DNA from: an uncultured bacterium
GTDB taxonomy: Bacteria; Desulfobacterota_D; UBA1144
Direction: 5' to 3'
NCBI GenBank assembly: GCA_913050325.1
Contig: CAJWZP010000002.1
Span: 66,180 to 130,179 of the forward strand
DNA length: 64,000 bases
A program made the translations under genes and the position numbers. Position 1 is the first letter of the stretch. Each line of letters starts with the position of its first letter. Below the pieces are notes generated by a model. That model saw only the letters and a list, made by a program, of their open reading frames with translations, ran no database searches and was not told the origin of the DNA. Positions 56,676 to 64,000 of this stretch are shown in pieces.

Positions 56676-57689
56676 ATGGATGCAATAAAAACCACTGATA
56701 CAAATAATATTGGAATTATTCTTGATCCAAATTCTTTTCAAAATATATCTGATATCGTATTGAAAGCAGAGAGTTATAATTTTCATTCAGCATGGGTGAC
56801 AGAACTTTATAGGTCTTCGTTTGAGCAACTTGTTCATATATCCTCAATCACAAATAAAATTAAAATTGGTAGTGCTGTTACGTTAGGTTTTGTAAGAAGC
56901 CCTTTGTCAACTATGATATCAGCAATGGATATAGATGAAATTTCAAAAGGTAGACTAATTTTTGGCTTAGGATCTGGTGCAATTAATACAAATAGAAAAT
57001 GGCATGGTATTGAAAATTTTGATAGACCTTCAGAGAGAATAAGCTCACTTCTTAAATCTTTAAAGATTATTGAAAAATCTTTAAATAACTCAAAGGATAT
57101 TTTGTATAATGATGAATTTATAAATATTGATATAAAAGCTTTTAGGAGGCCATTTAAGCCCTTTAGAGAAGAAATTCCAATATTTATAGCAGGTATAGGT
57201 CCAAAGATGACCAATATAGCTCTAAATCAATCTGATGGATATATAGGACATGTAGTATGTTCTAAAGACTATATAAACAACAATATAATACCCTTGAAGA
57301 AGAAAAAATTTTCAACTCTATCATCAATCGTGTTATGTGCAATTAATAAAAATAAATTGCAAGCCATTGAAGATTGTAAGGGGACGATAGCATTTTATTC
57401 AACAGTTAAAGCTTATTCAGAACCCTTTAGACAGTTAGGTTTTGAGGAAAATATAATTTCTATTAGAAAACATTTTTTTGAAGGCAATATCGATGGAATG
57501 ATATCAAACGTAAGTAATGAAATGGTAGAAAAGTTTGCTTTGGTTGGTAATCGTGATGAAGTAAAGGAAGGCATGTTAGAATTTAAAAATTTTATAGATT
57601 TACCGATATTGACTGCTCCTCATTATTATTTAAATCACGAAAAATTAGAAATATACCAGAATGAAATTCTAGAAACTTTTAAATTTTAG
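56676..57689 (+). CDS. luciferase-like (LLM class) flavin-dependent oxidoreductase
   Basis: 337 aa with a TIM-barrel LLM pattern (GIILDPNSF...; IGSAVTLGFVRSP; LIFGLGSG). Substrate unknown. Confidence 0.7.
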   Translation: MDAIKTTDTNNIGIILDPNSFQNISDIVLKAESYNFHSAWVTELYRSSFEQLVHISSITNKIKIGSAVTLGFVRSPLSTMISAMDIDEISKGRLIFGLGSGAINTNRKWHGIENFDRPSERISSLLKSLKIIEKSLNNSKDILYNDEFINIDIKAFRRPFKPFREEIPIFIAGIGPKMTNIALNQSDGYIGHVVCSKDYINNNIIPLKKKKFSTLSSIVLCAINKNKLQAIEDCKGTIAFYSTVKAYSEPFRQLGFEENIISIRKHFFEGNIDGMISNVSNEMVEKFALVGNRDEVKEGMLEFKNFIDLPILTAPHYYLNHEKLEIYQNEILETFKF

Positions 57690-58341
57690 CAGCTGTATAA
57701 ATGGTAACAATTCCTAAATTAAAAGATTTTATTTCCAAAACTTTAAAATTATTTTTAGAAAGTAATTCGTTAAATTCTTTAGGTGAATAGAATTTGTTAA
57801 TTGATGATGAAAGATAGAAATATTCTTTAAACTTCCCAAACAAAAGCCCAACTAGAGGTATAAAAAGGAAAAGATATATGTTTGTAATTAATTTCATAAT
57901 AGGATTTTCATTTCTTGAAAATTCCATAATGTACAAATATTTATTATCTTTTAAAACTCTATGTATTTCTTTTAGAGATTTTTCTATAGATTTTGTATTC
58001 CTAATACCAAATGAAATTGTTACATAGTCAAACATTTTATTTTCAAACGGTATATTCTCAGCATAACCTTTCAGGAAGTTAATATTTTGAGATTTTTCTT
58101 TAGCAATTTTAAGCATATTCTGTGATGGATCTAATCCATAGCATTCTGATACTGGATATTTCTTTTTTATTAATCTTATTATGTCTCCAGTTCCAGTAGC
58201 AATATCTAATATTTTCCCATTCATATTTGATTTGGTAACAAAATCTTTTTTCCATTTTTTATGTTTTCCGAGACTAATTATATTATTTATTCTGTCATAG
58301 ACCTTAGCTATTGAGTTAAAAGTATTTTTTGTATCTGGCAT
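57679..58341 (-). CDS. ubiE: ubiquinone/menaquinone biosynthesis C-methyltransferase UbiE family
   Basis: 220 aa with the UbiE N-terminal motif (FNSIAKVYDRINNIISLGKHKKWKK) and SAM-binding motif I (ILDIATGTGD). Confidence 0.85.
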   Translation of the reverse strand: MPDTKNTFNSIAKVYDRINNIISLGKHKKWKKDFVTKSNMNGKILDIATGTGDIIRLIKKKYPVSECYGLDPSQNMLKIAKEKSQNINFLKGYAENIPFENKMFDYVTISFGIRNTKSIEKSLKEIHRVLKDNKYLYIMEFSRNENPIMKLITNIYLFLFIPLVGLLFGKFKEYFYLSSSINKFYSPKEFNELLSKNNFKVLEIKSFNLGIVTIYTAAKI

Positions 58342-59210
58342 TATAGGTCCTTGATTATTTTATTGGCTCTTTTGATATCTCCTGATGTCATTAAATGTAT
58401 ACCGTCTAAATTACTTTTATATTCTTTTATTAATCTTGATGAATGCTCTATTGAATATTGTTCCATTTCATAATCATCTAATTTTTTTAATTTATTTAGA
58501 TGTTTGCTATCTATAGGTATACCAGCAATTTTATTAACTATATTTTTAAGTATTTTTTTGTTGGTTATTGGCAATATTCCACATAAAATTTTATAATTTT
58601 TTTTTCTAGATATTTGTGAAATAAAATCAAGATTTTCATGAGAATAAACTGGTTGAGTTATAAAAACATTTGAACCTTTTTTCAATCTATTGTTTATTAT
58701 CTTTTTTATTTCTCCAAAATCTTTATTAATATCAATAGTAGAAATGATATCAAAGTCTAATTTTTTTTGTATTTTATTCCCTGAATAATCATTTCCATTT
58801 CTGATTTTATCTAAAATTTTAATTAATTCATTGGTTCCAACTTCATATACCTCTTTAGATTTAAGGGAATCTCCATTTTTAATTTTATCTCCTTTAACAA
58901 TTAAGATTTTTTTTATATTCATTGAAATACATCCCAAAATTTCACTTTGAAGAGATAGTGTATTTTTGTCACGTGTAGAAAAATTAATAATTAATTTCTT
59001 AGGGTTGATTCCTTCCAATATCAATTTATGGGCGATACTTATAGGACTTATTCTAAGATTTGCTAAAGGGCAGCAAGTAATATCTAGGAAGTCAAAACTT
59101 TTATGGTATCTAACAATTTTTTTTATATAATTTGGATTTATATAATGCTTTGGCGGAACAATCTCAAAAGATGTTTTGAATGTGTTTTTGTTTAAGTTAG
59201 AATTTATCAT
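58341..59210 (-). CDS. metF: methylenetetrahydrofolate reductase family protein
   Basis: 289 aa with the MTHFR N-terminal signature SFEIVPPK and a TIM-barrel pattern. Its stop is shared with the ubiE start (1-nt overlap). Confidence 0.75.
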   Translation of the reverse strand: MINSNLNKNTFKTSFEIVPPKHYINPNYIKKIVRYHKSFDFLDITCCPLANLRISPISIAHKLILEGINPKKLIINFSTRDKNTLSLQSEILGCISMNIKKILIVKGDKIKNGDSLKSKEVYEVGTNELIKILDKIRNGNDYSGNKIQKKLDFDIISTIDINKDFGEIKKIINNRLKKGSNVFITQPVYSHENLDFISQISRKKNYKILCGILPITNKKILKNIVNKIAGIPIDSKHLNKLKKLDDYEMEQYSIEHSSRLIKEYKSNLDGIHLMTSGDIKRANKIIKDL

Positions 59211-59213
59211 TCT

Positions 59214-60143
59214 ATGCGCTATCTAATTATATTTATTTTTTTATTATTTTCTTTAAAGTCATATGGTATCACGAAAGTATATAATTTAATAGATGAAAAA
59301 CTCACAATTCATACAACGAATCCTTTAACTAAAGATCAAAAAAATAAAATAGAAGATATTTTAGATAATATAACAGCAGTTCTTGATGTAACGGATTCAG
59401 ATTCTTTTGTATCAAGATTTAATAATTTAGAAAAAAATTCTGAGGTTTCAGCTCCTGATGTATTCGTTGATGCATATAAAGTATTAAATGATTATAATAA
59501 AATAACTAAAGGTAAATTCGATCCGACAGCTTTTACACTTTTGTCTAAAAGTCAAAAAGTCAAAAAGTTAAATTACTATTTAAAATCTGGTGTTCATTCA
59601 AGATGTACTTCGTTAAAAAATATCAAAATTAAAATTAACAATGTTTTCTCTAAAAAAGAAAAATGTACTAAAATTAGTTTTAATTCTTTGATATATGGAA
59701 AAGTAGTTGATGAAATACAAATATTTTTTGATTCAGAAAAAATTAACGCCTATGCAATAATTTTTAATAATGTTGTTGCGAAAAAAAATTTTTCTTTTAG
59801 TGAAATTAGTACATTGAAACTTTCAGATTATATAAAGGAAAAGGTTAATTTTGATTTAATAAATAATTTTGGAATCTATGAACTTTCTGATAATTTATAT
59901 ATTCATAACATAAATATGAAAGATGAAAATTTAATATTAAATGATGAAATTATTATTCTCGTTTCTACAAGCTCAAACTCTAACAACAATATCCTAGCAA
60001 ATACCTTAAATCTTATGGATTTTGATAAAATAAAAAATTTAAACAATTCAGAAGTAAAGATTCCAATATTTATTTTATATAAAATCGGGGACATGTATAA
60101 TTTTTCATATACAGATAATTTTAAAAGATTTCTATCTGATTAG
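59214..60143 (+). CDS. hypothetical exported protein, Asn/Ile/Lys-rich (signal peptide)
   Basis: 309 aa with an N-terminal signal peptide (MRYLIIFIFLLFSLKSYG). No confident family assignment. Its start is 3 nt from the divergent metF start. Confidence 0.6.
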   Translation: MRYLIIFIFLLFSLKSYGITKVYNLIDEKLTIHTTNPLTKDQKNKIEDILDNITAVLDVTDSDSFVSRFNNLEKNSEVSAPDVFVDAYKVLNDYNKITKGKFDPTAFTLLSKSQKVKKLNYYLKSGVHSRCTSLKNIKIKINNVFSKKEKCTKISFNSLIYGKVVDEIQIFFDSEKINAYAIIFNNVVAKKNFSFSEISTLKLSDYIKEKVNFDLINNFGIYELSDNLYIHNINMKDENLILNDEIIILVSTSSNSNNNILANTLNLMDFDKIKNLNNSEVKIPIFILYKIGDMYNFSYTDNFKRFLSD

Positions 60144-61482
60144 AATTCGAAAAATTATTAACATATCTATCTATATCAAATTTTCTCTTTAATCCATTTT
60201 CATTCATATATCTAATTTTTCCAAAAATACTTCTTTCTTTCCAACCTCTATCATGTAAACCAAAACACCATAAAATACCAACATAACTATTAGGATTTCT
60301 ACCATCCAACTGATATTTATTATTTAGATAAAGAGCTATTTTAATACCTTCTTGAAAATTTTTAGTCCATTCTAATATTTTTTTTCCCCAGTACATCCTC
60401 ATATATCCATGAATATATCCATATTTTAATAATTGAATTTGAGCTGAATTCCAATATAAATCATGAGTTTTTGCAAATTCAAAATCATGTAAGTCATATA
60501 CGAATTCTCTTTTGTCTTCTTGATGACTAATTAAGGATTCAATGGCCCAATTTGGTAGACCTTTATGATTGTTATAGTTTTTATTATGATAAGTATAATT
60601 GTAGGCAAGCTCTCTTCTTATTAGAATTTGCTCAACAAATGAATTGGTGAAATTAAAATTTATTTTCATTAAATCATATATAATTTCAAATATCGAAATA
60701 TGACCATAGTGAAGATATTTACTCATACATGAATTTTTTATATTTTCTGGATTATTAGATTTTTCATCATAATTAAAAATGTCATTATCAATATAATTTT
60801 TAAAAGTATTTACTGCGTTATCATGACCACCTTGTATGTCTTGATTAATAAGATATTTATCTTTTGGTAAATCGCTTAGAATTTTAAAGATATCTATTGT
60901 ATATTCGTTAGGATCATCCAATGTTGTAATTCCATTTAATTCATTTTCAATTTTAAAGGTTTGATCAATCAAATCATCTACTAACTTGTAATACTTTCTC
61001 CTAAACGTAGCTGCTGAATATTCCTCTTTGTTAGAAACTAGTTTTGTGGGTAAATATAAATTATCAATTGAATAAATATTGCAATCAATATCTTTTAATT
61101 CACTTTTTAAATATTTTCTGGATCTTTCAGTATAAGGTTCATCAAGAACTAAAGTGTCACAATCACTTAAAATTAATGAACATAAATTTGTCCCATACTC
61201 ATAAAAGTTAATATTATGATTAAAATTATTAAACTTTAGTAATACATCTTTTAAACCTTCAAACATAAATTTCAAATGTCTCGATATACAATCGTATTGG
61301 ATTTTGTTATAAATAAAAAAGATTTTAAGTGGTAGTTTTTTTTCTTTTGCAATCCTAGCAGCAAATCTGAGAGAAAAATTATTTTCTATTCTTTGGTTTG
61401 AAGTCATCCAATAAGAAATAAATTTCCCCGTTTTATCTGCTTTTCTTAATATAGTGCTTCTATCTTTTTCGAATTGAATCAT
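60121..61482 (-). CDS. phr: class II CPD (deoxyribodipyrimidine) photolyase
   Basis: 453 aa. The C-terminal FAD-binding region matches class II photolyase signatures (GYIHGYMRMYWGKKILEWT...LDGRNPNSYVGILWCFGLHDRGWKERSIFGKIRYMN). Confidence 0.88.
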   Translation of the reverse strand: MIQFEKDRSTILRKADKTGKFISYWMTSNQRIENNFSLRFAARIAKEKKLPLKIFFIYNKIQYDCISRHLKFMFEGLKDVLLKFNNFNHNINFYEYGTNLCSLILSDCDTLVLDEPYTERSRKYLKSELKDIDCNIYSIDNLYLPTKLVSNKEEYSAATFRRKYYKLVDDLIDQTFKIENELNGITTLDDPNEYTIDIFKILSDLPKDKYLINQDIQGGHDNAVNTFKNYIDNDIFNYDEKSNNPENIKNSCMSKYLHYGHISIFEIIYDLMKINFNFTNSFVEQILIRRELAYNYTYHNKNYNNHKGLPNWAIESLISHQEDKREFVYDLHDFEFAKTHDLYWNSAQIQLLKYGYIHGYMRMYWGKKILEWTKNFQEGIKIALYLNNKYQLDGRNPNSYVGILWCFGLHDRGWKERSIFGKIRYMNENGLKRKFDIDRYVNNFSNSNQIEIF

Positions 61483-61838
61483 TTTTTAAATCTATATATC
61501 CAAAATAAAACTGAAAAAAGAAAAAAAGAAATGGGGATTATATATAATATAATACCAAACCCTGATGTCGGAGGTTTAGCCAATATTGTATCACCATAAA
61601 TTCCTACAAAATACTGTAAAATTTCTTCTTTTTTTTGACCTTGATCCAGTTTCTTTTTAACAACTTCTCTCATTGATATAGCAAGACCCGAGTTAGATTC
61701 TGCAACTGTTTGACCCTGACAAACAGGACACATAAGTTCATTAGAGATATCATAGAGATCATTATCTTTTCCTATAGAATTAGGTACGAATATAAATAGT
61801 AAAAGAATTACAATTTTAATTATTTTTAGAGTATTCAT
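61479..61838 (-). CDS. ccmH: cytochrome c-type biogenesis protein CcmH/CycL
   Basis: 119 aa with a signal peptide, the CcmH motif LMCPVCQGQTVAESNSGLAISMR (LRCxxCQ), and a C-terminal TM anchor. Confidence 0.85.
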   Translation of the reverse strand: MNTLKIIKIVILLLFIFVPNSIGKDNDLYDISNELMCPVCQGQTVAESNSGLAISMREVVKKKLDQGQKKEEILQYFVGIYGDTILAKPPTSGFGIILYIIPISFFLFSVLFWIYRFKK

Positions 61839-62325
61839 ATGTTTTTTTTAAGCCTATATTGAGAAAGTCTAAGCTGATTTTACCTATATATTTATAAATT
61901 ATTTTATTATCTTTCATAAAAAAAGTTTCGGGAACGCCTGATACTCCAAATTCAATGGGTAAAGTTTTTGTTTCGTCATAATAATTTTTATAAATCATAT
62001 AATTATCATCCATAAATTTCTTTGCTTCATTAATTTCATCAAATATATTTATCCCGATAATATAATTTATATTATTTTGCTCTGTAAAACTATTTAAATA
62101 CTTCACTTCGTCAATGCATGGTCTGCACCATGATGCCCAAAAATTAATTATGTAAATACCTTCAAAGGATTTTAAGTCTTTTGTTTGTTCATTATCATTT
62201 ATAATTTTATTTAATTTATAATCTTGAGTAATTTCTTTATCAATTAAAATAAAAGGTGATGAATTTATATTTGTATTATTACAAGAAATTAAAATTAGAA
62301 ATAATAATATTATTTTAATTTTCAT
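61816..62325 (-). CDS. ccmG: thiol:disulfide interchange protein CcmG/DsbE
   Basis: 169 aa with a lipoprotein-like signal (LILISC), the thioredoxin active site WASWCRPC, and GVSGVPETFFMKDNKIIYKYIG (CcmG signature). Confidence 0.88.
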   Translation of the reverse strand: MKIKIILLFLILISCNNTNINSSPFILIDKEITQDYKLNKIINDNEQTKDLKSFEGIYIINFWASWCRPCIDEVKYLNSFTEQNNINYIIGINIFDEINEAKKFMDDNYMIYKNYYDETKTLPIEFGVSGVPETFFMKDNKIIYKYIGKISLDFLNIGLKKTYEYSKNN

Positions 62326-62761
62326 TACAACATTTATTACCCAACTTTGTATTAGTGGAAGGGTAATCTTTATACGCTTCGTCTAACAAGCTCCTTATTT
62401 CTTGCATAGTAAATTTATCTTTTATTAAATATTTAACTGTAAGAGCTACATCTATACAAATTGGACAAGAAACACTATGATTAGTTAAATAAATCGTATC
62501 ATTGTCTATTTTTTTAATAAAACAAGATTTATTACTTGTATGTTTAATTTTCTCACACCCACAATAACATGAAAAATTTTCTAATAATTTATAGTTTTTA
62601 ACTGCATACTCATATGCCTCTTTTGTATCTCCTTTCAATGTTTTCAAAAAAATTATAGAATTTTCTGAAAGAGTAGATGATATACATTGAGTATTTAAGA
62701 TAAAAATTGAAATAAAAATAAATAGAAATTTATTAAACATCAAAATTTTGACTTTCAACAC
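62315..62761 (-). CDS. hypothetical secreted Cys-rich protein (CYCGC motif) encoded between the malic enzyme gene and ccmG
   Basis: 148 aa with a signal peptide and 9 Cys, including FSCYCGCEKIKHT, SCF, SCPIC and a C-terminal KCC. Start 62761 or 62740. Overlaps ccmG by 11 nt. Confidence 0.55.
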   Translation of the reverse strand: MLKVKILMFNKFLFIFISIFILNTQCISSTLSENSIIFLKTLKGDTKEAYEYAVKNYKLLENFSCYCGCEKIKHTSNKSCFIKKIDNDTIYLTNHSVSCPICIDVALTVKYLIKDKFTMQEIRSLLDEAYKDYPSTNTKLGNKCCNEN

Positions 62762-64000
62762 CAGCCATTTTCTCTAATTTTGCCTTATATTCATCTAGAT
62801 TAATTTTTAACCTAGCAACTCCAGTTTCCATTGCAGTTTTTGCTACAGCATAAGATTCCCATACTAATACTCTTGGATCAAAAGGAGAGGGGACTATATA
62901 TTCTTTACCATATACAAGTTCATCTCTGTTATGTTTTTTTGCAATTTCCTCAGGAGCTCCCATTTTAGCAAGTTTAGCTAAAGCAATAGATGCGGCTACC
63001 TTCATTTCTTCATTTATTTCAGTTGCTGCTACATCTAAAGCACCTCTAAAAATGAAAGGAAAGCCTAATACATTATTAACCTGATTTGGATAATCAGTTC
63101 TACCTGTTGCCATAATAATGTCTTGTCTTGCTTCAAATGCATCTTTTGGTGATATTTCCGGATCTGGATTTGCCATAGCAAATACTATTGGATTGTCATT
63201 CATATCTAAAATCATTTCTTTTGAAACAACATTACCAATTGAAAGTCCGACAAATACATCAGAGCCCTTAAAAGTATCCTCTAATGTTCTACAATCTGTT
63301 TCAACAGCAAATTCTTCTTTTTGCTTATTTAAGTTTTCTCTACCTTTATAAATTACTCCTTTACTATCACACATTAATATATTGTTTGGATTCACACCTA
63401 AAGTTATAAATAATCTTGCACAAGAGATTGCCGATGCACCGGCACCATTTATATTAATTCTTATATCAGCCATTTTTTTATCAACTAGCTCACAAGCATT
63501 TACTAAACCAGCTGCTGATATAATAGCTGTTCCATGTTGATCATCATGAAAAACAGGAATGTTCATTTTCTCTTTTAATTCGTCTTCAATTCTAAAACAT
63601 TCAGGAGCTTTTATATCCTCTAAATTAATACCACCGAAAGTTGGTTCAAGAAGTTCAACCGTTCTAATAATTTCATCAACATCAGTAGTTTTAATTTCTA
63701 TGTCAAAAGCATCTACTTGTGCAAATCTTTTAAACAATACTGCTTTTCCTTCCATAACAGGTTTACTAGCTTCTGGACCTAAATCGCCTAAGCCCAAAAC
63801 TGCTGTTCCATTTGAAACAACTGCTACAAGATTTCCTTTGTTTGTATATTTGTATACATTTTGAACATCTTCATGGATTTCTTTACATGGTTCCGCAACC
63901 CATGGTGAGTAAGCTAGGGATAATTCATCCTGAGTCTCTGCAGGTTTAGTTACAGTGGTTTCAATTTTTCCTCTTGGCTCCTTCGAATGATAATTTAAAG
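62733..64000 (-). CDS. maeB: NAD(P)-dependent malic enzyme (short form, no PTA domain evident); 5' end beyond window edge
   Basis: The minus-strand frame is open from 64000. Contains ...LAYSPWVAEPCKEIHEDVQNVYKYTNKGNLVAVVSNGTAVLGLGDLGPEASKPVMEGKAVLFKRFAQVDAFDIEI... (malic enzyme NAD-binding signatures). The 'M' at 63797 in the ORF track is an internal TTG. Confidence 0.85.
   Translation of the reverse strand, partial: LNYHSKEPRGKIETTVTKPAETQDELSLAYSPWVAEPCKEIHEDVQNVYKYTNKGNLVAVVSNGTAVLGLGDLGPEASKPVMEGKAVLFKRFAQVDAFDIEIKTTDVDEIIRTVELLEPTFGGINLEDIKAPECFRIEDELKEKMNIPVFHDDQHGTAIISAAGLVNACELVDKKMADIRININGAGASAISCARLFITLGVNPNNILMCDSKGVIYKGRENLNKQKEEFAVETDCRTLEDTFKGSDVFVGLSIGNVVSKEMILDMNDNPIVFAMANPDPEISPKDAFEARQDIIMATGRTDYPNQVNNVLGFPFIFRGALDVAATEINEEMKVAASIALAKLAKMGAPEEIAKKHNRDELVYGKEYIVPSPFDPRVLVWESYAVAKTAMETGVARLKINLDEYKAKLEKMAGVESQNFDV

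What the first reader, a model, noticed from the sequence alone, without database searches (positions are those of the whole stretch)
62315..62761. Secreted nine-cysteine protein with a CYCGC motif embedded between malic enzyme and ccmG
The 148-aa ORF has a signal peptide followed by FSCYCGCEKIKHTSNKSCF...SVSCPICIDV...KCCNEN. The C-Y-C-G-C arrangement is reminiscent of the PCYCGC-motif family of small bacterial proteins of unknown function. Combined with its position immediately upstream of, and overlapping, the thiol:disulfide oxidoreductase CcmG, it is a candidate periplasmic metal- or redox-active partner. It could be a copper or heme chaperone, or a CcmG substrate or regulator. It is not a canonical ccm component.
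Basis: partly seen in the sequence, partly recalled or inferred. Interest (0 to 1): 0.55.

Follow-up and report, generated by a model that had tools for sequence, protein, structure and literature searches.

The report
Exported cysteine-rich redox protein beside ccmGH
This small exported protein belongs to a widespread family of unknown function (PCYCGC, PF13798), and its conserved Cys/selenocysteine motif, weak CcmH-like fold and repeated placement next to cytochrome c maturation genes suggest it is an unrecognised helper in fitting haem or copper into respiratory proteins.

Summary
It most likely starts at the ATG at 62740, which gives 141 aa. It is a clear member of Pfam PF13798 (PCYCGC): 71 bits against a cut-off of 25. 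Six Cys and two His are invariant across 151 family representatives. The signal-peptide Cys and the C-terminal CC occur only in this clade.

Three new results:
- **Selenocysteine at C99.** In 22 of 119 homologous genome loci the first Cys of C99-x-x-C102 is an in-frame TGA. This makes the motif a reactive redox or metal centre.
- **Linkage to cytochrome c maturation.** It recurs in at least three deep subclades: PCYCGC–CcmG–CcmH (this window, Ignavibacteriales), dihaem cytochrome c–CcmE–CcmF–CcmH (Bacillaceae), and ResB–CcdA–PCYCGC–ResA–ResC (Chloroflexota).

Most sampled homologues instead head operons encoding CuA-type cupredoxins, a NapH-like polyferredoxin, cytochrome c and a DUF1573 selenoprotein, often beside CopZ or CopA.

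My best reading is a periplasmic (C/U)xxC oxidoreductase, or Sco-like metallochaperone, kept reduced by CcdA and CcmG. Function is inferred, not shown.

The parts
62315..62740 (-). PCYCGC-family (PF13798) gene, 141 aa from the ATG at 62740. The mechanical ORF runs up to a GTG at 62761 (148 aa). Residue numbers in this report use the 148-aa numbering.
   Evidence: The start is inferred from the 8-nt overlap with the malic-enzyme stop and from the starts of homologues.
62675..62740 (-). N-terminal hydrophobic export signal (MFNKFLFIFISIFILNTQCISS). It looks like a Sec-type signal and has no twin-arginine motif. C26 is not conserved, so it is probably not a lipobox.
   Evidence: Read from the sequence. 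116 of 131 full-length family representatives have such a segment, 63 have a lipobox-like motif and only 7 a twin-Arg-like motif. The cleavage site was not predicted with a dedicated tool.
62555..62569 (-). C65-Y-C67-G-C69 motif. It is preceded by Ser here, where most of the family has Pro.
   Evidence: All three Cys are invariant in 151 of 151 representatives. SCYCGC occurs in 20 of 168 and PCYCGC in 108 of 168 proteins.
62522..62542 (-). Stretch holding invariant H74 (62540-62542) and C80 (62522-62524).
   Evidence: both invariant in 151 of 151 representatives.
62456..62479 (-). H95-x3-C99-P-I-C102, the proposed reactive centre, at the N-terminus of the long helix.
   Evidence: C99 and C102 are invariant and H95 is present in 150 of 151 representatives. 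The position equivalent to C99 is an in-frame TGA (Sec) in 22 of 119 loci, and H95 is Met in 5 of those. Helix 93-107 in 141-aa numbering comes from the AF2 model.
62327..62332 (-). C-terminal C144-C145 pair in a low-confidence tail. It is specific to this clade.
   Evidence: Conserved in 8 of 8 close relatives and absent from the wider family. pLDDT is below 50 at residues 138-141 of the model.
61816..62325 (-). ccmG/dsbE-type thiol:disulfide oxidoreductase (WCRPC, GVSGVPETF). Its ATG overlaps the end of the PCYCGC gene by 11 nt.
   Evidence: A Tara Oceans source labels it K02199.
61479..61838 (-). ccmH (LMCPVCQGQ motif plus a C-terminal membrane anchor). It overlaps ccmG by 23 nt.
   Evidence: Pfam PF03918 scores 92.6 bits. 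Homologues are named CcmH by their sources.
62733..64000 (-). 3' part of the malic-enzyme gene immediately upstream. Its stop overlaps the PCYCGC ATG by 8 nt. The gene runs off the end of the window.
   Evidence: Relatives carry Pfam malic and Malic_M domains.
60121..61482 (-). Photolyase-family gene downstream, overlapping ccmH by 4 nt. It is the last gene of the tightly packed same-strand run. Context only.
   Evidence: No terminator-like site lies between the genes.

Best explanation
The gene encodes a Sec-exported periplasmic protein of about 115 residues from the PCYCGC/CYCXC family (PF13798; selenoprotein family OS_HP4). Its reactive centre is the H95-x3-C99-x2-C102 motif at the start of a helical sub-domain that resembles CcmH. 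The upstream C65-x-C67-x-C69 / H74 / C80 cluster forms either a second metal site or a disulfide relay.

I propose that it works as an accessory thiol-disulfide oxidoreductase, possibly metal-loaded and Sco-like in logic. It would act in the reductive branch that prepares cofactor-binding cysteines of respiratory proteins: CxxCH of apocytochromes c and, in other lineages, the Cys pair of CuA domains. It would draw electrons from the CcdA -> CcmG route, whose genes are translationally coupled to it here.

Shown:
- family membership
- the invariant 6 Cys + 2 His
- the export signal
- the Sec/Cys swap at C99
- recurrent gene linkage

Inferred:
- the direction of electron flow
- the substrate
- any bound metal
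For: **Membership and conservation**
- PF13798 scores 71 bits against a cut-off of 25.
- C65, C67, C69, H74, C80, C99 and C102 are invariant in 151 of 151 family representatives, and H95 is present in 150 of 151.

**Reactive centre**
- In 22 of 119 homologous genome loci there is an in-frame TGA exactly at C99, and the conserved sequence continues after it (UxxCVDIxRD...). The taxa are Neobacillus, Vicinamibacterales, Gemmatimonadota, Anaerolineae, Binatia and Udaeobacter.
- A hairpin lies about 17 nt downstream of the TGA. Its local folding energy averages -11.2 in Sec loci and -9.4 in Cys loci, p = 0.012.
- Reviews list OS_HP4/PF13798 as a UxxC selenoprotein (PMC13188914, PMC9312934).

**Fold**
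- The AF2 model has pLDDT 90 and pTM 0.81.
- The top two Foldseek hits among 350,542 chains are CcmH 2hl7 and 2kw0, with TM-scores normalised to the target of 0.56 and 0.54.
- hhalign of the family profile against a CcmH profile gives P = 0.0014 over the 'L..EGKS..EI...Y' helices.
- 5 of 136 members give weak Pfam CcmH hits, the best at E = 4e-4.

**Linkage to cytochrome c maturation genes**
- The PCYCGC -> CcmG (GVxGVPET fingerprint) -> CcmH triad is kept in the window clade. It is also kept at 41-53% identity, with different flanking genes, in L127 and Ignavibacteriales L076.
- Bacillaceae: PCYCGC -> dihaem cytochrome c -> unknown gene -> CcmE -> CcmF -> CcmH.
- Chloroflexota: PCYCGC next to CcdA, ResB, ResC and a ResA-like Trx.
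- L131: ResB-CcdA-PCYCGC-ResA-ResC, with PCYCGC inside the operon.
- One protein (P0165) fuses a thioredoxin domain to a PCYCGC domain.
- In the window, the 8-, 11- and 23-nt overlaps point to co-translation with ccmG and ccmH.

**Location**
- The family is extracytoplasmic and mostly Sec- or lipoprotein-exported.
Against: - No experiment exists for any family member. The held literature mentions the family only as 'unknown function'.
- Only about 20 of 119 sampled loci carry a ccm, res, ccdA or Trx gene within the 8-kb piece.
- The commonest context is rich in copper genes: CuA cupredoxins, CopZ/HMA, YHS and CopA, plus a CsoR-led operon.
- H95 becomes Met in 5 Sec forms, and Sec also occurs in metal-binding HMA-type proteins. 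This favours a metal-binding reading at least as much as a pure oxidoreductase reading.
- I could not read model coordinates, so Cys-Cys and Cys-His distances are unknown.
Confidence: 0.5

Rival explanations
1. It is mainly a periplasmic Cu(I)-binding protein: a metallochaperone or copper buffer for CuA or cuproenzyme assembly, or for copper tolerance. (H/M)95, (C/U)99, C102 and the CxCxC/H/C cluster would be the copper ligands. CcmG, the TlpA-like Trx and CcdA would only keep its thiols reduced, as TlpA does for Sco. On this view it is a client of CcmG, not a catalyst in cytochrome c maturation.
For: - 89 of 119 loci place PCYCGC on the same strand as, and usually directly upstream of, cupredoxin, NapH-like polyferredoxin or cytochrome c genes, which the clustering pooled into one group. 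In the annotated examples the cupredoxins carry the C-x3-C-x3-H-x2-M CuA signature.
- 26 loci carry CopA, HMA or YHS genes next to it.
- L128-L130: CsoR-type repressor -> unknown gene -> PCYCGC -> unknown gene -> DsbA-like -> HMA protein -> P-type ATPase -> Cu-oxidase_4.
- H95 is replaced by Met, a typical Cu(I) ligand swap, in 5 loci.
- The co-operonic DUF1573 partner carries G-C-(C/U)-P-P followed by a Met/His-rich motif.
- Relatives of the window clade also carry a TlpA-like Trx and CcdA just upstream.
Against: - The contexts linked to ccm or res genes (the window, L076, L127, L131, L054, L073, Bacillaceae) contain no copper gene.
- The window holds no cupredoxin, HMA, DUF1573 or polyferredoxin homologue.
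- There is no detectable similarity to a known copper chaperone fold (Sco, PCuAC, CopZ, CopC) in Pfam, NCBIfam or the fold searches.
Confidence: 0.3
2. It is a structural cysteine- or zinc-stabilised exported protein with a role unrelated to cytochrome maturation. Its position next to ccmGH would then reflect gene packing in a streamlined 30%-GC genome.
For: - The run also contains malic enzyme and photolyase, which have no obvious functional link, and all of these genes overlap.
- Close relatives share the whole neighbourhood, so their synteny alone says little.
- Weak saposin-like matches hint at a disulfide-stapled helical fold: SapB_1 at 16.8 bits and saposin A at E = 0.035.
Against: - The triad recurs with different flanks at 41-53% identity.
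- Ccm or Res linkage appears independently in Bacillaceae and Chloroflexota.
- Purely structural disulfide cysteines are not normally replaced by selenocysteine, yet 22 of 119 loci have Sec at C99.
- The saposin scores fall below the Pfam cut-off of 25.2 bits.
Confidence: 0.1
3. It binds an iron-sulfur cluster through its six Cys and acts as a periplasmic electron carrier.
For: - It has six invariant Cys in about 40 residues.
- It is frequently adjacent to a NapH-like 4Fe-4S membrane protein.
Against: - Almost all members have Sec-type or lipoprotein signals; only 7 of 131 have a twin-Arg-like motif. They would therefore be exported unfolded and without a pre-assembled cluster.
- The Cys spacing (CxCxC, CxxC) and the two invariant His do not match ferredoxin motifs.
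- No ferredoxin family hit was found.
Confidence: 0.05

Closest known systems
CcmH (PF03918; structures 2hl7 and 2kw0), the System I apocytochrome c thiol reductase
   Same: - Small periplasmic helical bundle with a CxxC ahead of a helix-'EGKS..EI'-helix-Y(G) unit.
- Weak profile-profile match, P = 0.0014.
- Encoded next to ccmG, and here next to ccmH itself.
   Different: - No significant sequence match: no Pfam CcmH hit for the window protein.
- It lacks the LRCxxCQ motif, the roughly 13-residue segment after the CxxC, and the C-terminal membrane anchor.
- It has an extra N-terminal sub-domain with CxCxC/H/C and a second invariant His.
- Sec forms are known for this family.
- It co-exists with a bona fide CcmH, so it is not a replacement.
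Sco1/SenC with TlpA and PCuAC (CuA assembly factors)
   Same: - The same logic: an exported Cys/His protein that may both bind copper and act as a thiol-disulfide oxidoreductase.
- It depends on a CcdA/TlpA-type reductant.
- It is encoded beside CuA-domain proteins in most homologous loci.
   Different: - The fold is all-helical plus a hairpin, not thioredoxin-like.
- There are no Sco, Trx or PCuAC family hits.
- The motif is (H/M)x3(C/U)xxC plus CxCxC, not CxxxC...H.
ScsABCD (suppressor of copper sensitivity; PMC10907172)
   Same: It links periplasmic copper stress with CxxC thiol-redox proteins and a DsbD/CcdA-like electron conduit. The CsoR-DsbA-ATPase context of L128 resembles this theme.
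   Different: There is no sequence or fold relationship. Scs proteins are thioredoxin-fold or DsbD-like. The comparison rests on gene context and my reading of that paper's abstract only.
OS_HP4 / CYCXC (seleno)protein (NCBIfam NF041379), as catalogued in selenoproteome surveys
   Same: It is the same superfamily: the NF041379 profile matches residues 41-130 at E = 3.9e-17. The UxxC position reported in reviews corresponds to C99xxC102.
   Different: - The window protein has Cys, not Sec.
- It scores 62 bits, below the equivalog cut-off of 90.
- It carries an extra C-terminal CC.
- No function is assigned to OS_HP4 in those surveys.

Membership tests
Pfam PF13798 (PCYCGC) | Score above the Pfam gathering threshold | tested here: met
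   71.2 bits against a cut-off of 25, E = 1.2e-19, covering residues 37-134.
Pfam PF13798 (PCYCGC) | (P)CYCGC motif | tested here: met
   The window has S-C-Y-C-G-C. Ser replaces Pro, as in 20 of 168 family proteins. All three Cys are invariant.
Pfam PF13798 (PCYCGC) | Further conserved Cys/His set (H74, C80, H95, C99, C102) | tested here: met
   All are present in the window protein. H74, C80, C99 and C102 are invariant in 151 of 151 representatives and H95 is present in 150 of 151.
Pfam PF13798 (PCYCGC) | Extracytoplasmic location (signal peptide or lipobox) | tested here: inconclusive
   A hydrophobic N-terminus is present, and 116 of 131 family members have one. No dedicated signal-peptide predictor was available. 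The window protein has no conserved lipobox.
NCBIfam NF041379 (OS_HP4 CYCXC (seleno)protein, equivalog) | Score above the curated equivalog cut-off | tested here: not met
   62.1 bits against a cut-off of 90. It is related to this equivalog group but does not belong to it.
NCBIfam NF041379 (OS_HP4 CYCXC (seleno)protein, equivalog) | Sec (UGA) at the UxxC position | tested here: not met
   The window encodes Cys at position 99. Sec is found in 22 of 119 other loci.
CcmH (PF03918) | Significant match to the CcmH profile | tested here: not met
   No hit at E <= 1 for the window protein. hhalign of family against family gives 17% probability, P = 0.0014. 5 of 136 family members give weak hits.
CcmH (PF03918) | Three-helix bundle carrying the CxxC | tested here: inconclusive
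CcmH (PF03918) | LRCxxCQ active-site motif and C-terminal membrane anchor | tested here: not met
   The window protein has S-V-S-C-P-I-C-I and no C-terminal hydrophobic segment.
Thioredoxin-fold oxidoreductases (CcmG, TlpA, ResA, Sco) | Thioredoxin fold or family profile match | tested here: not met
   No Trx, Redoxin or Sco hit. The model is helical with one beta-hairpin.
Saposin-like (SapB_1, PF05184) | Score above the gathering threshold and the six-Cys saposin pattern | tested here: not met
   16.8 bits against a cut-off of 25.2. The PDB saposin A match has E = 0.035 and covers only the CxxC helix.
Canonical System I Ccm components (CcmA-I) | Orthology to a named Ccm protein | tested here: not met
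   No Ccm family hit other than the weak CcmH resemblance. It is encoded in addition to CcmG and CcmH.

The most novel reading that the evidence does not exclude
PF13798 proteins are a widespread and so far unrecognised accessory component of extracytoplasmic cofactor-site maturation. They would be CcmH-like (Cys/Sec)xxC reductases with an attached Cys/His metal site. They would plug into either of two membrane electron conduits: CcdA plus a Trx-like protein in System I and System II cytochrome c maturation operons, or a NapH-like polyferredoxin plus the DUF1573 (OS_HP2) Cys-Sec protein in CuA/cytochrome c operons. Their job would be to prepare CxxCH and CuA cysteines for haem or copper insertion.
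Probability: 0.35. Interest if true: 0.7.

Novelty: new member of a known kind. Interest (0 to 1): 0.5.

Why it matters
Cytochrome c maturation Systems I and II are regarded as well-inventoried. A conserved extra gene inside or beside ccmGH, ccmEFH and resB-ccdA-resA-resC operons in at least three phylum-level groups would add a component to the thiol-redox branch, or would tie that branch to copper handling.

The result also gives a concrete, testable function to two catalogued 'orphan' selenoprotein families. OS_HP4 (PCYCGC) and OS_HP2 (DUF1573) turn out to be encoded in the same operons.

For the window itself, the finding is one more Cys-form member of a known family of unknown function. 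Its main value is as the lead that exposed these associations.

Tried and rejected
- **The search for related loci with family alignments A2 and A3.** It failed because no stretch was conserved enough. I replaced it with a degenerate DNA pattern scan of genome contigs.
- **The afdb50 fold library** was not available.
- **Truncated representatives as Sec evidence.** P0083, P0136 and P0055 looked like possible Sec truncations, but they are simply cut or frameshifted contigs. Sec was then shown by read-through translation of genome loci.
- **Whole-region folding energy as a SECIS test.** The 63 nt after the TGA do not differ between Sec and Cys loci (p = 0.84). Only the local +10..+48 window does (p = 0.012).
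- **The saposin similarity** is below threshold.
- **An Fe-S protein** is unlikely because export is mostly Sec-type or lipoprotein-type.
- **The promoter and terminator scan** was uninformative: 27 promoter-like sites against 29 expected, and no intergenic terminator.
- **No CcmE, CcmF, ResB, ResC, cupredoxin, cytochrome c, HMA, DUF1573 or polyferredoxin homologue** was found in the window itself.
- **The organism was not identified.** Sources give only 'bacterium' and Tara Oceans sample labels.
- **Model coordinates cannot be read** with these tools, so Cys/His geometry could not be measured.
Full report
**1. Observation**

The most likely start is the ATG at 62740, giving 141 aa. That ATG overlaps the stop of the upstream malic-enzyme gene by 8 nt, as in relatives (L001), and relatives begin at the equivalent Met.

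The downstream gene starts 11 nt before the ORF's stop. It is a thioredoxin-fold protein with WCRPC and the GVSGVPETF fingerprint that I know from CcmG/DsbE. The next gene matches Pfam CcmH at 92.6 bits and overlaps ccmG by 23 nt. A photolyase-family gene follows with a 4-nt overlap.

No terminator-like site separates these genes, and the promoter scan was uninformative. The window has 30% G+C.

**2. Family**

The protein is an unambiguous member of Pfam PF13798 'PCYCGC' (71.2 bits, cut-off 25). It is related to NCBIfam NF041379 'CYCXC family (seleno)protein, OS_HP4' at 62 bits, below the equivalog cut-off of 90.

An exhaustive HMMER search found 574 cluster representatives at E <= 0.001. In an alignment of 151 of them, C65, C67, C69, H74, C80, C99 and C102 are invariant and H95 is present in 150 of 151 (148-aa numbering). 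Y50 and G68 are also nearly invariant.

The ninth Cys, C26, lies in the signal peptide and is not conserved. C144-C145 is restricted to the close marine clade.

Of 131 full-length representatives, 116 have an N-terminal hydrophobic segment, 63 have a lipobox-like motif and only 7 have a twin-arginine-like motif. The family is therefore extracytoplasmic and exported mostly unfolded. This argues against a pre-assembled Fe-S cluster.

The held literature mentions the family only as a protein of unknown function. It appears as a lipoprotein next to an Fe3+-binding protein in Parageobacillus (PMC13068155) and as a UxxC selenoprotein family in selenoproteome reviews (PMC13188914, PMC9312934).

**3. 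Reactive centre**

A degenerate DNA pattern for CYCGC-x4-H-x-S-N retrieved 120 genome loci, and 119 of them contain the gene.

Read-through translation shows an in-frame TGA exactly at the position of C99 in 22 loci, and the conserved sequence continues after it (for example HALGUGICVDITRDVM). These loci come from Neobacillus, Vicinamibacterales, Gemmatimonadota, Anaerolineae, Binatia and Udaeobacter.

These loci carry a 7-bp hairpin about 17 nt after the TGA. The hairpin is encoded by I-[AT]-R-[DE]-[AV]-[MI], and its local folding energy is modestly lower than in Cys loci (p = 0.012).

So C99-x-x-C102 is the family's Sec/Cys site. In known selenoproteins such a site marks either a redox-catalytic residue or a metal-ligating residue (general knowledge).

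In five Sec loci the invariant H95 is replaced by Met. That swap is typical of Cu(I) sites (general knowledge).

**4. Fold**

An AlphaFold2 model built on 136 sequences is confident: pLDDT 90, pTM 0.81. It has N-terminal helices, a Cys-rich loop, a beta-hairpin and two long C-terminal helices, the first of which begins at the CxxC.

- Foldseek against 350,542 chains ranks the two solved CcmH structures (2hl7, 2kw0) first and second. TM-scores normalised to the target are 0.56 and 0.54, and E is about 1.
- hhalign of the family profile against a CcmH profile aligns the 'L..EGKS..EI...Y' helices: P = 0.0014, probability 17%.
- 5 of 136 members give weak Pfam CcmH hits, and 15 give weak SapB_1 hits.

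The CcmH resemblance is therefore consistent across methods, but each method alone is below significance. I treat it as suggestive only.

**5. Gene context**

*Close relatives.* Proteins at 63-71% identity share the whole neighbourhood: TlpA-like Trx, CcdA, malic enzyme, PCYCGC, CcmG, CcmH, photolyase. On its own this says little.

*More distant homologues are informative.*

- L127 (P0021) and Ignavibacteriales L076 are 41-53% identical to the window clade. They keep PCYCGC -> CcmG-type Trx -> CcmH with different flanking genes.
- Bacillaceae (Neobacillus, Bacillus sp., Paenibacillus): PCYCGC -> dihaem cytochrome c -> unknown 353-aa protein -> CcmE -> CcmF -> CcmH -> ... -> ABC ATPase.
- Limnocylindria and Chloroflexia: PCYCGC beside multihaem cytochromes, CcdA, ResB, ResC and a ResA-like Trx.
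- L131 (P0022): the order is ResB-CcdA-PCYCGC-ResA-ResC, so PCYCGC sits inside a System II operon.
- One protein (P0165) fuses a thioredoxin domain to a PCYCGC domain.

These three groups are only 26-46% identical to one another.

About 20 of 119 loci carry at least one ccm, res, ccdA or Trx gene within the 8-kb piece, almost always on the same strand. My rough estimate for chance is about 1%, given a handful of such genes per genome. This figure is an inference, not a computed value.

*The majority context is different.* In 89 of 119 loci PCYCGC lies on the same strand as, and usually heads, a conserved gene set. In the loci I annotated its order is:

1. a CuA-signature cupredoxin of about 155 aa
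2. a NapH-like Fer4_5 membrane polyferredoxin of about 450 aa
3. a CuA cupredoxin fused to cytochrome c
4. a DUF1573/OS_HP2 protein

Cupredoxin, polyferredoxin and cytochrome c genes clustered as a single group, so the count of 89 refers to that pooled group.

CopA, HMA (CopZ-like) or YHS genes lie nearby in 26 loci, mostly upstream.

L128 shows a CsoR-led operon with PCYCGC, a DsbA-like protein, an HMA protein, a P-type ATPase and Cu-oxidase_4.

L135 pairs PCYCGC with only DUF1573 and the polyferredoxin.

**6. Interpretation**

One theme fits all contexts. This is an exported Cys/Sec protein that works next to a membrane electron conduit: CcdA, or a NapH-like polyferredoxin. It also sits next to proteins whose cofactor-binding cysteines must be kept reduced outside the cytoplasm: CxxCH of c-type cytochromes and the Cys pair of CuA.

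For the window protein I favour an accessory thiol-disulfide oxidoreductase, possibly metal-loaded, that is reduced via CcdA -> CcmG and acts alongside CcmH (confidence about 0.5).

The main rival is a Cu(I) chaperone or buffer that is merely a client of CcmG or a TlpA-like protein (about 0.3). The copper-rich majority context and the His-to-Met swap support it. The copper-free ccm and res contexts weaken it. The two readings are not exclusive, as Sco proteins show.

Two further readings are unlikely. Adjacency by chance in a compact genome has a confidence of about 0.1. An Fe-S carrier has a confidence of about 0.05.

**7. Comparison with known systems, and novelty**

The protein is not a canonical Ccm component. 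It fails the sequence tests for membership of CcmH, the thioredoxin-fold oxidoreductases, Sco and the saposins (see the membership table).

As an object it is a new Cys-form member of a known family of unknown function.

The following are not described in the library I could search:

- the position of the Sec site within the structure
- the CcmH-like fold
- the recurrent embedding in System I and System II maturation operons
- the co-operonic pairing of the OS_HP4 and OS_HP2 families

They make the family a good experimental target. I score interest at 0.5.

Noticed in passing
L007, L024, L026, L027, L048, L055, L072, L092, L093, L098, L106 and others (DUF1573 ORFs downstream of PCYCGC): The co-operonic DUF1573/OS_HP2 proteins carry a G-C-(C/U)-P-P motif. 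The second position is an in-frame TGA (Sec) in 33 ORFs and Cys in 7, out of 57 ORFs examined. A Met/His-rich stretch (FMMHxxMxGxHxF) follows, which looks like a Cu(I) site. Two 'orphan' selenoprotein families, OS_HP4 and OS_HP2, are therefore encoded in the same operons.
   Followed up: partly
L023 378-7929 (Neobacillus cucumis); also L096, L126, L058: These Bacillaceae carry a System I-type ccm cluster: CcmE, CcmF, CcmH, two unknown genes and an ABC ATPase. It lies downstream of a Sec-form PCYCGC gene, a dihaem cytochrome c and a conserved 353-aa protein with no Pfam hit. To my knowledge Bacillus-type Firmicutes normally use System II.
   Followed up: partly
L092 494-3566; L106 493-4814; about 89 of the 119 loci: A conserved and apparently uncharacterised operon in Anaerolineae, Gemmatimonadota and other groups. 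It encodes two CuA-signature cupredoxins (C-x3-C-x3-H-x2-M), one of them fused to cytochrome c, together with a NapH/NosR-like polyferredoxin membrane protein. YHS and HMA genes often precede it. It may be a novel respiratory or copper-handling module.
   Followed up: partly
L020, L047, L097, L104, L121 (PCYCGC genes): The otherwise invariant His four residues before the (C/U)xxC motif is Met in five loci, and all five are Sec forms (M-x3-U-x2-C).
   Followed up: partly
L023, L025, L029, L044, L049, L058 (about 17-36 nt after the in-frame TGA): A 7-bp stem with a 5-nt loop follows the TGA, for example CAUCACG-CGUGA-CGUGAUG and AUAUUGCC-CGGGA-GGCAAUA. The stem sequences differ between loci but keep their pairing, which is consistent with a bacterial SECIS element. 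Sec forms read I-[AT]-R-[DE]-[AV]-[MI] across this stretch in the loci I inspected. No covariance model was built.
   Followed up: partly
window 57679-64000, minus and plus strands: The gene packing is very tight, with overlaps of 8, 11, 23 and 4 nt. It joins functionally unrelated genes (malic enzyme, PCYCGC, ccmG, ccmH, photolyase) next to genes for ApbE, MTHFR and a UbiE-type methyltransferase. The same order is kept in relatives L001 and L004.
   Followed up: no
L001 5432-6630; L004 3-1043; L008 2655-3898 (relatives; the region lies beyond the window's right end): In relatives, a second thioredoxin-fold gene and a CcdA (DsbD_TM) gene sit just upstream of the malic-enzyme gene. The Trx is TlpA- or ResA-like (WCVPC) and lacks the CcmG GVxGxPET fingerprint. 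Five extracytoplasmic thiol-redox genes are thus clustered in this lineage.
   Followed up: partly
P0165 (374 aa); P0112 and P0168 (about 400 aa): Multidomain family members exist. One fuses a thioredoxin domain, a Germane-like region and a PCYCGC domain. Two others carry a PCYCGC domain followed by a conserved C-terminal region of about 250 aa with no Pfam hit.
   Followed up: no
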